Below are positions 6,001-12,000 of a DNA stretch of 64,000 nucleotides, in pieces (within the stretch, counting starts at the first letter, position 1; the number at the start of each line of letters is the position of its first letter). The position numbers are program-made. The DNA comes from a virus (taxonomy: Duplodnaviria; Heunggongvirae; Uroviricota; Caudoviricetes): the IMG/VR virus record IMGVR_UViG_637000107_000010, one strand, 5' to 3'.

Positions 6001-9000
6001 TATTTATTTCAATTGCATTAATATCTTGAATGGATTACATAGAGTTAATGTATCCAGTACTCCCTATTCTCTTGCATATAATACATGTTGCAACTTACAT
6101 CTCAGCGCTATGAAAAAACACCACCTCTCTCTTTATGAAATTCTGGATTTACCAAGCGCTAATTTATCATTTCAATCTACCTTTAAGTATTGCATTTATC
6201 TCCCTACGAGGTCATACTTTAGGAAGTTAAATATGAATGATAATATACCTACAGCGCGAAATCACAAACAATCGACTTGTATTACAGAAAAAACATGCCT
6301 ATATTTTTAAACTTCACAGCAGGAAGTATCTTACCTGAGAATGAGCTAGCATCTTTACGTTATATTGTGCAGCAAAATCAAAATGATACTGTAATCATAA
6401 AAGAACGTTATAAAATGGATATCCGTTATATCGAATCAGTCAATGGTTTTACAGTAAATCCTGTATGCAGTAATCATTTCTCCATATTTATGGCGAGACA
6501 AAACACTATTGCTCGCAACCTGGAACAGCAGATCAACAACGGACGAAGTTTTGCACAAATATCTCAGGATTTTATGCTTCAATTATCTTCAAATATAGGA
6601 TGGAAAAAAGGGGCCGAAAACGCCCTTAAAAATAAAATCCATTCTCATTCATTTGTTGTAAATCCTGATGAATTCTCTTGCGACACACAATTTCTTAAGT
6701 GCCCAATAACATTATGCGTTCCAGAAAAAGGGGTTTTTGTCAAGAATGCACTGAACTCCAACATATGCACTCTTTATGATAAGTCTGCGTTCATGAATCT
6801 CACAAGAGAACATCTACCCCACCCTCTCAGCAGGGAAAAGATAGTAAAAGAAATGATTATTGAAAGGAATATGTGTTATTTTGACACCATAAGTCAGCAT
6901 TTCATAATTATGGATGCAGACCAACAAGAAACAGCATTGTAAATAAAATGTAATAATTACATACTATTAGTGATTCTCATGCATCGTAAGCGGCTCGCCA
7001 GAACCGTATTGATATTTACTGAGGAGCCTGTACATAGATTTGTGTNATTGCCTGATTTTGATATGTTCAATCCAACATCAAAAGCAGGTTAATTTATGGA
7101 CGAAAAACAGTTGCAGGCTCTGGCTAACGAACTGGCCAAAAATNTCAAAACCCCTGAAGATCTCAGCCAGTTCGATCGCCTGCTGAAGAAAATCAGCGTT
7201 GAGGCAGCTCTCAACGCTGAAATGTCCCACCATCTGGGCTACGATAAAAACCAGCCTAAACCGGGTGCCAACTCCCGCAATGGCTATTCCACAAAGACCG
7301 TTATCACCGGTGATGGCCACCTGGAACTACGCACTCCGCGCGATCGTGATGGCTCTTTTGAACCGNAACTTGTGAAGAAAAACCAGACCCGGATCACCGG
7401 GATGGATAACCAGATCCTGTCGTTGTACGCCAAAGGCCTGACAACCCGCGAAATAGCGGCTGCGTTTAAAGAGCTGTATGACGCTGATGTCGTAAGCGTA
7501 CAGCGAGGGCCGTATTGACGGGGATGTGTTATTCAGCTGGCAGTGCTATGCGCCACGGAAGCAGTTCGCTGACCCGGTTGACCGGCCAGTCTTGCTATTG
7601 ACGCCAAGCACATGGCGAAGGTAGCTTTCTGGATCCACGTCATTTCAGTTTGCACGTCCCGATCAGGCTGTACAGTAGCGCTCCCCGCTCACCACCATGA
7701 TCAGAGCCGAAGAACAGGAAGTTTTTACGACCCAGACTGACCGCCCGCAGGGCATTTTCAGCGATGTTGTTGTCGATTTCCACCCAGCCATCGTTCGCAT
7801 AGTACGTCAGTGCCGGCCACTGGTTAAGTGCGTACGCGAACGCCTTCGCCAACTCTGAGTGTCGCGACAGGGTCTTCATCTTTTCACGCAACCAGCTTTC
7901 CAGGGATTTCAACAACGGTTTCGTTTTTCGCTGACGTTCAGCAAGCCGCTGCTCTGCCGGCATTCCCCTTATATCCGCCTCTATGGCGTACAACTGACCG
8001 ATCTGCTCCAGGGCTTCTTCCGTCAGTGCTGACGGGATGCGGACGTGCACATCGTGGATCTTTCGGCGGGCATGAGCCCAGCAGGCAGCTTCCNGTTATC
8101 CCACCATTGCGATACAGCTCGTTGAACCCGGCGTACGCATCCGCTTGCAGCACACCGCTGAAGCAGGCAAGATGAGTCTGCGGATGGATGCCTTTTCTGT
8201 CCGGGCTGTAAGCGAACCACACTGCAGGTGCCAACGCTGACCCTGCATTGCGGTCATCACGAACATACGCCCACAACCGCCCGGTCTTCGTCTTCTTATT
8301 ACCCGGCAGCAGTACCTGGACCGGGGTATCATCGGCATGGAGTTTGCCGTCAGTCATGACATAGCCATGAAGCGCCTCTTCCAGCGGAGACAGCAGCCGG
8401 CAGCATGCATCCACCCAGCCCGACAGCAGTGAACGCCTCAGCTCCACACCTTGCCGGCCGTATATTTCTGACTGGCGATACAGCGGGGTGTGCTCTGCAT
8501 ACTTCGAGGTCAGCACGCGGGCCAGCAGCCCCGGTCCGGCGATACCCCGCTCGATGGGCCGCGAAGGTGCAGGTGCCTGCACGATGGCATCGCACTGAGT
8601 ACAGGCATGTTTTTCCCGTACCGTCCGGATAACCCGGAAGGCTGCTACGCATCAACTCCAGCTGTTCGGCGGTATCCTCGCCCAGATAGCTCAGTGAACC
8701 GCCGCAGTTCGGGCAGCACGGCGCCGCAGGCAACAGTCGCTTTTCGTCACGGGGTAGTGATTCAGGGAACGGCTTACGGGTGCGGGTCTGACGCAACGGA
8801 CGCTGTACTGCCGGGTCATACACCCTACCAGTCAGCGTATCGCTCTCTTTCTGAAGCCGGTTCAGATCGGCTTCCATTTGTGCGATACGGCGGGAGACTT
8901 TTTCGGAACGACTGCCGAAGTTCATCCGGCGGAGTTTATCCAGCTGCGCCTGCAGATGGTCTATTTCGCGCTCCCGGTTGCTCAGCTTTTCCTGCAGGGC

Positions 9001-12000
9001 GTGGATCAGCGCTTCCTGTTCGGCCAGGCGCTGTTTCAGCAAGGAAGATGTCGTCAGAAGAGATGTCGTTCATAAGCCCGTATTTTACCGGGCTTATTCT
9101 GTGACAACCAGGATAAAGAGATTTACAGCATGGTCAGGGAGGTCAGCAGCCGCTTAGGCTGTCGCCAGTCGATACCTTCCAGCAGCATCGCCAGCTGCGC
9201 CTGCGTAAGGAACACTTTGCCATCACGGGCTGACGGCCAGGCGAAGCGCCCACGCTCCAGCCGTTTGGTCAGGAGGCACAGTCCGTCACCGGTGGACCAC
9301 AGCAGTTTAACCTGACTGCCGCTGCGGCCCCGGAAAATGAAAACATGGCCGGACATGGGATCGTCTTTCAGCGCCGTTTGTACTTTCGCAGCCAGGCCGT
9401 TGAAGCCATTTCTCATATCGGTGATACCGGCAACCAGCCAAATTTTGGTCCCGGAAGGTAACGGGATCATCGCTTCAGTTCCTGTATCAGCAGAGTCAGG
9501 AGCTTTTCGCTGACATTGCCATTGAAGCGGAGCGTCCCGTGCCGGAACGTTACCTCACAGCTGATACTGAGGGTTTCCGGGTCCTCTGCGANCGATTCTG
9601 GCTGTTCGGCAGCTGCATCGANAGTCACAGGAAGTAGCTGGGGGCTCTCTGAAGAAGGTAATAGCAGCTTTCCCTCGCGCCATTGTTGTCGCCATTTGAA
9701 CAACAGATTTGCGTTAATGCCATTTTCAAGAGCAAGTTTTGAGATGGATATCCCGGGTTCACAGGAGGCAGCAACGAGCTGCTGTTTAAATTCGGGAGGA
9801 TAATTAGGGCAGCCTTTTCGCCTGCCGGGAGTCACATTTTTCTGCATATCTGATACTTTGGTTCCCACTACTTATTTGGTGGACACCACTTTGTCTAATT
9901 CGTCAGATTCTGACCAGACGGTTCAGGCTGTACGCTTACCTGATGTCTCACCGGCGCTGGTATCGAAGGTCACCGATGCCGTTATGGAGCAGGTAGTCGA
10001 ATGGCAAAACCGGCCACTGGATGCGGTCTATCCCATTGTTTATCTTGACTGTATTGTCCTGAAGGTTCGGCAGGACAGTCGCGTAATCAATAAATCCGTA
10101 TTCCTCGCACTGGGTATCAATATCGAAGGCCAGAAAGAGTTACTGGGTATGTGGCTGGCCGAAAACGAGGGAGCGAAGTTCTGGCTCAATGTGCTGACTG
10201 AACTAAAAAACCGCGGCCTGAACGATATTCTCATAGCCTGTGTCGACGGGCTGAAAGGCTTCCCGGACGCTATCAACACGGTGTATCCGGAAGCCCGCAT
10301 CCAGCTGTGCATCGTGCATATGGTGCGCAACAGCCTGCGGTTCGTTTCCTGGAAGGACTACAAAGCCGTCACCCGCGACCTGAAAGCCATCTACCAGGCC
10401 CCCACAGAAGAAGCAGGCCAGCAGGCGCTGGAAGCGTTCGCCAGCGCCTGGGACAGTCGCTACCCGCAGATAAGCCGGAGCTGGCAGGCAAACTGGACCA
10501 ACCTGGCGATGTTCTTCGCTTACCCGGCAGATATCCGCAAAGTCATCTACACAACCAACGCCATCGAGTCGCTGAACAGCGTAATCCGGCATGCCATCAA
10601 AAAACGCAAGGTGTTCCCGACGGATGACTCAGTGAAAAAGGTCGTGTGGCTGGCAATCCAGGCGGCTTCACAGAAATGGACGATGCCACTGCGGGACTGG
10701 CGTATGGCAATGAGCCGCTTTATTATCGAGTTCGGTGACCGCCTGGACGGTCACTTCTGAGAAAAGGCATTTACACAGAATCGTGTACAGGGTCGATTTT
10801 ACTCGTTAATTAGCGAACAAACCACTCGTCAGCAGACTCCCAGGTATCTTTCAGCGTCTCCTGAACAAAAGTTTTTGCAGAATCTTTATCGGCGGTGCGA
10901 GTAACTGAAAGGCCATCGTTGCTGGTGGATTTGATGATCACTTCTACATCGTCATAACGTTTACTGACACGTCGCAGCATTTCTTGTTGCAGGGCAGGAA
11001 CAGAACCTTTTGGCATTTTGTTGATTTTGGCTGCGGGGTATCTGTGGGGCATATATGGGACATAAAAAGGCCTCAAATAAACAGCAAAATCGAGATTAGG
11101 GATTTTTAGAAAAAATACAACCATCTGAAAAAACTTAGAAAACACCCAAAAACCCACAGAATAGTAAAAAACATCTATGAATTATGGATTTCAAGAGTCA
11201 TTCAATCTAACTAATTGATAAATAAAAAATTAACTTTTCATCGCTTCGTTATGGGGCATGGTTGGGGCAAACTCGCTTAACTGTGTATTTAACAGCGTTA
11301 CCTGCGCATTATTATTTTCTGACATCCATTTCCCGTACACCTGAAACACCATTTGCGCATCTGCATGGCCCATCTGGTTTGCAATGAATGCCGGGTTAGC
11401 TCCTGCTGTTAACGACCAGCAGGCATAAGTGTGTCTCGACTGATACGATTTGCGATGGCGGATTCCGGCACGCTTTACCGCTGCGTCCCACATCTGCCTT
11501 ATTGAGTCAACGGTAAAATGGTCGCCATAATTTTTTACTTTCGCTGACACTTCAGGTTGAAAAACAAAGGTACATTTTTGTTTCTCTGTTCTGCCGAATT
11601 CTCTGAGGTGAACATCGATGATATGCTCTTTGCTCAGTCTCGTTAGTGCCATCTGACTCCGGAGAGCGTCGATTGCGGGCTTAATAAGGTGAATCACACG
11701 ATTGGTTCCCGCCTGTGTTTTTGGTACTGTAAAACGGTCTTTTGCCAGATTTCTTCTGATTATCATTCTGCCATTGCGCAAGATGGTTGCGGTTTTTCTT
11801 CATCATTTTCTTCTTCTGTTTCCTGCTTAGCAGACAGTTCGCGGTTAACTTCTTCCAGGATATCTTTTTCCGGTGTATGTCGTGCAGCAGTGAGAGTTTC
11901 CTTGCTGGGGTTCTCGTGATCAGTCTCCGTTAAGTAGGCGTTGATATACCCCTGAAGGCGTCCCGGGTAGTGATAAAACTCAGGGTGAGCGCTCCGGATA

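What the first reader, a model, noticed from the sequence alone, without database searches (positions are those of the whole stretch)
7027..10792. Nested insertion: IS66-family element inside an IS256-family transposase gene with intact CTGATGTC duplication
The IS256-family transposase ORF continues exactly in frame (...ELYDADV|SPALVSK...) across a 2448-bp IS66 copy bounded by 8-bp CTGATGTC direct repeats. This is a clean record of one IS transposing into another and marks the nleG-to-DinI intergenic region as an IS landing zone.
Basis: seen in the sequence. Interest (0 to 1): 0.4.

Follow-up and report, generated by a model that had tools for sequence, protein, structure and literature searches.

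The report
ISEc8 inserted into an IS256-family element
One mobile element (ISEc8) has jumped into the transposase gene of another (an IS256-family element) at the end of an E. coli O157:H7 prophage; this is real but ordinary, is already annotated in reference genomes, and the apparent damage to ISEc8 is sequencing error.

Summary
CTGATGTC occurs at 7484-7491 and 9940-9947, directly flanking an IS66-family element (7492-9939) that splits an IS256-family transposase gene. Removing the insert and one repeat copy gives a 1315-bp element with a 402-aa ORF. That sequence is 100% identical to the uninterrupted allele at the same nleG7-dinI locus in O55:H7 and atypical O157 strains.

The insert is ISEc8. 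The outer element is a relative of ISEic2 (92.5% nt identity). Both are annotated in the Sakai reference genome, and 210 complete E. coli genomes carry the same nested structure.

- The outer element spans 7024-10794, not 7027-10792.
- ISEc8 is 2442 bp. The window's 2448 bp and its tnpC "frameshifts" come from six spurious inserted bases. Finished genomes encode an intact 512-aa TnpC.
- The outer IS has no target duplication of its own at this locus.

The "IS landing zone" idea has modest support. IS629/IS1203 hit the same IS256 transposase gene independently in strain PV15-279, and hit dinI in Sakai-type strains.

Verdict: already known, low interest. The insertion could serve as a lineage marker, because it is absent from the O55:H7 and atypical O157 genomes found here.

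The parts
7024..7491 (+). Left part of the 1315-bp IS256-family element (ISEic2 relative). It holds the left inverted repeat at 7024-7053 and transposase codons 1-132 at 7096-7491.
   Evidence: The IR pair is I1. The ends are fixed by five independent copies. Pfam PF00872 positions 14-131 match.
7484..7491 (.). Target-site duplication, copy 1 (CTGATGTC). It belongs to the IS256-family transposase ORF.
   Evidence: The sequence occurs once at this site in the uninterrupted allele.
7492..9939 (-). ISEc8 (IS66 family). It measures 2448 bp here and 2442 bp in finished genomes. Terminal inverted repeats are at 7492-7513 and 9918-9939.
   Evidence: It differs by 0-1 nt from five plasmid copies, each with a perfect 8-bp duplication.
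7529..9073 (-). ISEc8 tnpC (DDE transposase). In the window it is broken into three ORFs by inserted bases at 7592, 7598, 7643, 8094(N), 8643 and 9041. Finished genomes encode an intact 512-aa protein.
   Evidence: NF033517, 459 bits.
9123..9470 (-). ISEc8 tnpB (IS66 accessory protein, 115 aa).
   Evidence: PF05717; NF033819.
9467..9847 (-). ISEc8 tnpA (accessory HTH protein, 126 aa). It overlaps tnpB by 4 nt.
   Evidence: NF047595.
9940..9947 (.). Target-site duplication, copy 2 (CTGATGTC).
9948..10794 (+). Right part of the IS256-family element. It holds transposase codons 133-402 plus the stop codon at 9948-10760, and the right inverted repeat at 10765-10794.
   Evidence: (PF00872 positions 133-377). 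(Sakai annotation 'ISEic2 Family: IS256 partial')..
6295..6946 (+). Left neighbour: the nleG7 type III effector gene. An extra A at 6926 in the window shifts its 3' end.
10810..11052 (-). Right neighbour: a dinI-like gene. Its stop codon lies 15 bp from the outer IS end.

Best explanation
This is a two-step insertion history at the right end of a lambdoid prophage (Sp12 in Sakai), in its effector-cargo region.

Step 1 is older. A 1315-bp IS256-family element, a relative of ISEic2 and IS1414, came to lie between nleG7 and dinI.

Step 2 came later, after the divergence of O55:H7 and of the atypical O157 strains listed below. ISEc8 (IS66 family, tnpA-tnpB-tnpC) transposed into codon 130-132 of the resident transposase gene and duplicated the 8-bp target CTGATGTC.

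The outer element is thereby inactivated. The O157:H7 genomes listed show no full-length copy of it, so it is probably immobile there (inferred). In finished genomes the inner ISEc8 is intact and virtually identical to other copies, so it is presumably still transposition-competent (inferred). The frameshifts seen in the window are sequencing or assembly errors.

The neighbouring genes converge on the IS, so no effect on their expression is expected (inferred).
For: - **Duplication and repeats.** The 8-bp direct repeat and the terminal inverted repeats are in place.
- **Protein families.** Pfam and NCBIfam assign TnpA, TnpB and TnpC to IS66, and the two ORF halves to contiguous parts of the IS256/Mutator profile.
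- **Reference annotation.** Finished EDL933 and Sakai carry the same structure. Sakai annotates it 'ISEc8 Family: IS66' and 'ISEic2 Family: IS256 partial'.
- **Spread.** 210 complete genomes carry the nested form.
- **Pre-insertion allele.** The uninterrupted nleG7-IS256-dinI allele is 99.9-100% identical over 2001 bp in O55:H7 strains 2013C-4465, RM12579, CB9615, DEC5D and DEC5B, and in O157 strains 493/89, LSU61 and F3113. The reconstructed element is identical to it in nucleotides and protein.
- **ISEc8 behaviour.** Five independent ISEc8 copies on plasmids each have a different perfect 8-bp duplication and differ from this copy by 0-1 nt.
- **Outer element behaviour.** Independent copies of the IS256-family element have the same ends and their own 8-bp duplications. 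It is multicopy at 99.4-99.6% identity in other E. coli.
- **Sequence errors.** Over the 6-kb region the window differs from finished EDL933 only by Ns and one-base insertions. Over 21.8 kb the differences are 22 Ns, 13 insertions, 1 substitution and 0 deletions.
- **Literature.** 493/89 and LSU61 are described as ancestral or intermediate strains (PMC10758439), and PV15-279 as beta-glucuronidase-positive atypical O157:H7 (PMC6256406).
Against: - The outer IS256-family element has no 8-bp duplication at this locus (TTACTGAG versus GATTTTAC). No genome among 5426 shows the nleG7 and dinI flanks joined without it. Step 1 is therefore less cleanly documented than step 2.
- The window is not collinear with any finished genome outside 4772-26539. 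Its assembly is unreliable in general, although not at this locus.
- Whether this ISEc8 copy is active was not tested.
Confidence: 0.96

Rival explanations
1. The nested structure is an assembly artefact: repeat-induced misjoining of an ISEc8 copy into an IS256-family element in a poor assembly.
For: The window carries 122 Ns and many one-base insertions, and it is chimeric relative to finished genomes at other places.
Against: The same structure, base for base apart from the errors, is present in 210 complete genomes, including finished EDL933 and Sakai. It also has a perfect 8-bp duplication.
Confidence: 0.01
2. This ISEc8 copy is a genuinely decayed element with a frameshifted tnpC, as the window sequence suggests.
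For: In the window, tnpC is split into three ORFs.
Against: All differences from finished EDL933 within ISEc8 are single-base insertions or Ns, with no substitutions. The same insertion-only pattern runs through 21.8 kb of the window. Finished genomes annotate an intact 512-aa TnpC (WP_000998048.1) at this locus, identical to the protein on plasmid copies.
Confidence: 0.03
3. The outer element's two halves mark an IS-mediated rearrangement joint. On this view two different IS256-family copies recombined and brought the nleG7 cassette next to dinI, rather than one simple insertion.
For: The outer element has no target duplication. No empty site exists in 5426 genomes.
Against: The left flank shows patchy homology to the sequence that directly precedes an IS-free paralogue of the dinI end at 62327 in the same window. 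That paralogue's homology to the right flank begins exactly at the IS boundary. This argues that both flanks derive from one originally contiguous nleG-dinI spacer.
Confidence: 0.1

Closest known systems
ISEc8 (IS66 family), as annotated in E. coli O157:H7 Sakai and EDL933
   Same: It is the same element. It is 2442 bp in finished genomes, with tnpA-tnpB-tnpC, GTAAGCG... inverted repeats and an 8-bp duplication. This exact copy is annotated in Sakai as 'ISEc8 Family: IS66'.
   Different: Nothing biological differs. The window copy carries six spurious inserted bases and two further Ns.
ISEic2 (IS256 family, Edwardsiella ictaluri)
   Same: The length is the same (1315 bp) and the termini are nearly identical. 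The single 402-aa transposase is 96.3% identical in amino acids. ISEic2 makes an 8-bp duplication in its own copies. Sakai annotates the right half as 'ISEic2 ... partial'.
   Different: Nucleotide identity is only 92.5%. RefSeq names the protein generically 'IS256 family transposase'. From memory, ISfinder treats elements under about 95% nt identity as distinct rather than as isoforms, which would make this a distinct sister element. ISfinder could not be queried here.
IS1414 (IS256 family, E. coli)
   Same: The architecture and ends are the same. Identity is 87.5% in nucleotides and 95.3% in amino acids.
   Different: It is more distant than ISEic2.
IS629/IS1203 insertions at the same locus in other O157 lineages
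   Same: These are independent IS hits within the same roughly 2-kb stretch. One is inside the same IS256-family transposase gene in PV15-279. The other is inside dinI in Sakai-type strains.
   Different: They belong to a different IS family (IS3), make a shorter duplication (4 bp at the dinI site) and sit at different positions.

Membership tests
IS66 family / ISEc8 | Three genes in the order tnpA, tnpB, tnpC, with tnpC encoding the DDE transposase. | tested here: met
   Pfam HTH_Tnp_1, TnpB_IS66, LZ_Tnp_IS66 and DDE_Tnp_IS66 match. NCBIfam NF047595, NF033819 and NF033517 score above their cut-offs.
IS66 family / ISEc8 | Terminal inverted repeats of about 20-30 bp beginning GTAAGCG. | tested here: met
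   The arms are at 7492-7513 and 9918-9939: 22 nt, 82% complementary.
IS66 family / ISEc8 | An 8-bp target-site duplication. | tested here: met
   CTGATGTC is present on both sides. Five independent ISEc8 copies each carry a perfect 8-bp duplication.
IS66 family / ISEc8 | Near-identity to the reference ISEc8. | tested here: met
   The locus is annotated as ISEc8 in Sakai. The finished copy differs by 0-1 nt from plasmid copies labelled ISEc8.
IS66 family / ISEc8 | An intact transposase ORF (functional copy). | tested here: inconclusive
   The ORF is broken in the window but is an intact 512 aa in finished genomes at the same locus. The breaks fit a sequencing-error signature. Reads were not available.
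IS256 family | A single transposase of about 400 aa of the Mutator/IS256 type. | tested here: met
   The reconstructed 402-aa ORF scores 424 bits on NF033543 against a cut-off of 150. PF00872 covers profile positions 14-377 of 379 across the two halves.
IS256 family | Element length of about 1.2-1.5 kb with imperfect terminal inverted repeats. | tested here: met
   The element is 1315 bp. The inverted repeats are 30 nt and 73% complementary (I1). The ends are confirmed on five independent copies.
IS256 family | An 8-9 bp target-site duplication. | tested here: not met
   At this locus the flanks read TTACTGAG versus GATTTTAC. The feature is met in the independent copies examined: ATGTGCAA, GCGCTTCC, GAAAAACC and GTCATTAC. 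The shortfall is therefore local history, not a property of the element.
ISEic2 (as an isoform) | At least about 95% nucleotide identity to the reference element. This is the ISfinder convention as recalled from memory. | tested here: not met
   Identity is 92.5% in nucleotides and 96.3% in amino acids. It is a close relative, not an isoform.

The most novel reading that the evidence does not exclude
The ISEc8 insertion was a single event on the branch leading to typical O157:H7. On this reading it is absent from O55:H7, from sorbitol-fermenting 493/89, from LSU61, and from the beta-glucuronidase-positive lineage represented by PV15-279. The junctions at 7491/7492 and 9939/9940 would then be a lineage-diagnostic marker. 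The event would also have destroyed the lineage's only full-length copy of this IS256-family element. A less likely extension is that the intact outer inverted repeats allow the whole 3.8-kb nest to be mobilised in trans by a related plasmid-borne IS256-family transposase.
Probability: 0.6. Interest if true: 0.15.

Novelty: already known. Interest (0 to 1): 0.08.

Why it matters
It matters little beyond bookkeeping. The case is a clean textbook example of one IS inactivating another, with both the before and after alleles preserved in sequenced strains. It offers a possible PCR-typable marker separating typical O157:H7 from its O55:H7 and atypical O157 relatives.

The practically useful result is negative. 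The apparent tnpC pseudogenisation, the 2448-bp length and an altered nleG7 C-terminus are errors of this particular sequence. The window is also chimeric relative to finished genomes, so other findings from it should be checked against a finished O157:H7 assembly.

Tried and rejected
- **Empty site for the outer IS.** A 500-bp query joining the two flanks found no genome with the flanks contiguous, so the outer insertion could not be dated or given a target sequence. An IS-free paralogue inside the window (62327) gave only a partial answer.
- **Outer target duplication.** I looked for an 8-bp duplication around the outer IS and found none.
- **IS66 reference paper.** I tried to read Han et al. 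2001 (PMC95320) for the family's 8-bp duplication. The paper is not held. I tested the property empirically on five plasmid copies instead.
- **ISEc8 target preference.** The six duplications seen (CTGATGTC, CTTGATAC, AGATTTCA, GTTCTACA, TGTTATCA, GCTTCCAT) show no obvious consensus, and the sample is too small to say more.
- **Searches deliberately not run.** I did not run the large protein database searches, structure prediction or RNA searches. The DNA-level identity to annotated elements made them unnecessary.
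Full report
**What is in the sequence**

CTGATGTC occurs at 7484-7491 and 9940-9947. Between the two copies lies a 2448-bp segment (7492-9939). Its ends form a 22-nt imperfect inverted repeat, GTAAGCGTACAGC.../...GCTGTACGCTTAC (I3).

On the minus strand this segment encodes three genes:
- an HTH protein at 9467-9868;
- an IS66 Orf2/TnpB protein at 9123-9470;
- three ORF fragments carrying the LZ_Tnp_IS66, zf-IS66 and DDE_Tnp_IS66 domains.

Outside the segment, 7096-7491 matches Pfam Transposase_mut positions 14-131, and 9948-10760 matches positions 133-377 of 379. The two pieces are therefore contiguous parts of one IS256/Mutator-type transposase. Joining them with one repeat copy removed gives an open 402-aa ORF that reads ...ELYDADV|SPALVSK....

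**Identity of the two elements**

The 6-kb region is 99.8% identical to 210 complete E. coli genomes, and all those listed are O157:H7.

In finished EDL933 (NZ_CP008957) the insert is annotated as the IS66-like element ISEc8, with tnpA, tnpB and an intact 1539-nt tnpC. It is flanked by two 'IS256 family transposase' pseudogene fragments. In Sakai (NC_002695) the same copy is annotated as repeat_region 'ISEc8 Family: IS66' (2442 bp). The right-hand outer fragment is annotated 'ISEic2 Family: IS256 partial', inside prophage Sp12.

NCBIfam places the proteins in IS66 TnpA, TnpB and transposase, and the reconstructed protein in IS256 (424 bits against a cut-off of 150).

The reconstructed 1315-bp outer element compares with known elements as follows:

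| Element | Nucleotide identity | Amino-acid identity |
|---|---|---|
| ISEic2 | 92.5% | 96.3% |
| IS1414 | 87.5% | 95.3% |
| Multicopy elements in other E. coli chromosomes and plasmids | 99.4-99.6% | not computed (one plasmid copy, pE110019: 99.3%) |

**Boundaries**

Five independent copies of the outer element were examined: two E. coli plasmid records sharing the same insertion site, an E. ictaluri plasmid, an Enterobacter plasmid and an IS1414 copy. All begin GAGCCTGTAC/GAGTCTGTAC; four end GTACAGGGTC and the IS1414 copy ends AACAGGCTC. Each is flanked by an 8-bp duplication; the two E. coli plasmid copies share one (ATGTGCAA). The element therefore spans 7024-10794, not 7027-10792.

At this locus the 8-bp flanks differ (TTACTGAG versus GATTTTAC). 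No genome among 5426 joins the two flanks without the IS.

An IS-free paralogue of the dinI end lies at 62327 in the same window. It is homologous to the right flank starting exactly at the IS boundary, and the sequence before it shows patchy similarity to the left flank. I read this as an old simple insertion whose duplication has been lost or altered. An IS-mediated rearrangement remains possible (about 0.1).

**Order of events**

The uninterrupted allele is nleG7, then an intact IS256-family element (transposase WP_000343700.1), then dinI. It is present at 99.9-100% identity over 2001 bp in these strains:
- O55:H7: 2013C-4465, RM12579, CB9615, DEC5D and DEC5B;
- O157: 493/89, LSU61 and F3113.

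The element reconstructed from the window is identical to this allele in both nucleotides and protein. So ISEc8 inserted into a pre-existing IS256-family element.

Strains 493/89 and LSU61 are described in the literature as ancestral or intermediate (PMC10758439). PV15-279, a beta-glucuronidase-positive atypical O157:H7 (PMC6256406), also lacks ISEc8 here. This suggests the insertion arose on the branch to typical O157:H7. I did not build a tree, so this is an inference.

In the O157:H7 genomes listed, the best match to the 1315-bp element is one of the two fragments. The insertion therefore probably removed the lineage's only full-length copy.

**ISEc8 properties**

Five ISEc8 copies at different plasmid sites each carry a different perfect 8-bp duplication. 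They differ from this copy, as it stands in finished EDL933, by 0-1 nt. ISEc8 transposase genes number about ten per O157:H7 genome (494 in 48 strains, PMC10758439). An ISEc8 insertion in stx2a has been reported in one isolate (PMC5359411). This is consistent with an element active in the recent history of the lineage.

**The tnpC frameshifts are not real**

Across 6000-12000 the window differs from finished EDL933 at 12 positions: five N substitutions and seven one-base insertions (one of them an N). There are no base substitutions other than Ns. Six of the insertions lie in ISEc8, at 7592, 7598, 7643, 8094, 8643 and 9041, which explains 2448 versus 2442 bp.

Over the whole collinear block 4772-26539 the differences are 22 Ns, 13 insertions, 0 deletions and 1 substitution. 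That is an error signature, not decay. An extra A at 6926 likewise distorts the nleG7 C-terminus.

Outside 4772-26539 the window is not collinear with any finished genome. The locus itself is collinear with 210 finished genomes, so the nested structure is not an artefact.

**'IS landing zone'**

Support is modest. PV15-279 carries IS1203/IS629 inside the same IS256-family transposase gene, at a different position. Sakai-type strains carry IS629 in dinI, 118 bp to the right of the outer IS. [quoted passage not shown] This is a known general property of these cargo regions, and IS629 is very active in O157. The pattern is expected rather than surprising.

**Consequences**

nleG7 and dinI both point towards the IS. 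The nleG7 stop codon in the finished sequence is 77 bp from the left end (81 bp for the frame-shifted window ORF ending at 6942), and the dinI stop codon is 15 bp from the right end. No promoter is disrupted, so the nest is most likely neutral for its neighbours (inference).

**Verdict**

This is a real, clean nested insertion that is already annotated in reference genomes. Its mechanism is standard DDE transposition with an 8-bp staggered cut. Interest is low. The useful outputs are the corrected boundaries, the demonstration that the pseudogene appearance is sequencing error, and the before-and-after alleles.

Noticed in passing
window 4772-26539 (and all 122 Ns in the window): Against finished EDL933 this block differs by 22 Ns, 13 one-base insertions, 0 deletions and 1 substitution. 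That is a low-quality-assembly signature, and it will create false frameshifts in many genes. One example is the extra A at 6926 in nleG7.
   Followed up: yes
window 1-4991, 26539-36000 and 36000-44000: The window is not collinear with any finished E. coli genome. Positions 1-4991 match a prophage at 3.567 Mb of EDL933, 4772-26539 match 1.885 Mb, and 36000-44000 match the Sp4-type prophage at 1.272 Mb at 100%. This is either a misassembly across lambdoid prophage repeats or a recombinant strain.
   Followed up: partly
window 2188-3462 and 3463-4772: A truncated ISEc8 (its last 1275 bp) abuts an IS629-like element with 108-aa and 296-aa ORFs on the minus strand. That element in turn abuts a tail-fibre gene.
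   Followed up: partly
window 38935-41376: A third ISEc8 copy with an intact 512-aa tnpC is inserted in a terminase small-subunit gene. Its left terminus reads AAAAGCG instead of GTAAGCG, also in finished EDL933. The flanks read TTAAAAAA on both sides if four terminal bases are counted as lost.
   Followed up: partly
window 62327-62728: A second dinI-like gene, 99.5% identical to the one at 10810-11052, lies next to a truncated ydfJ and follows three nleG genes (60039-62180). It serves as an IS-free paralogue of the outer element's insertion point.
   Followed up: yes
L002 (Sakai) 6407-7716; L010 (PV15-279) about 1786-3044: There are two independent IS629/IS1203 insertions at this locus in other strains. 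One is in dinI in Sakai, Xuzhou21, SRCC 1675, Wll001 and AR-0430. The other is inside the IS256-family transposase gene in PV15-279.
   Followed up: yes
reconstructed IS256-family element, bases 1-102 (window 7024-7125): The first 102 bp match thousands of E. coli chromosomes, including K-12, at about 93% under a 'hypothetical protein'. This is probably a widespread solo left-end remnant of a related IS.
   Followed up: no
window 11230-11781: A truncated tyrosine integrase gene lies immediately right of dinI. It marks the junction between two tandem lambdoid prophages, Sp12 and Sp11 in Sakai.
   Followed up: partly
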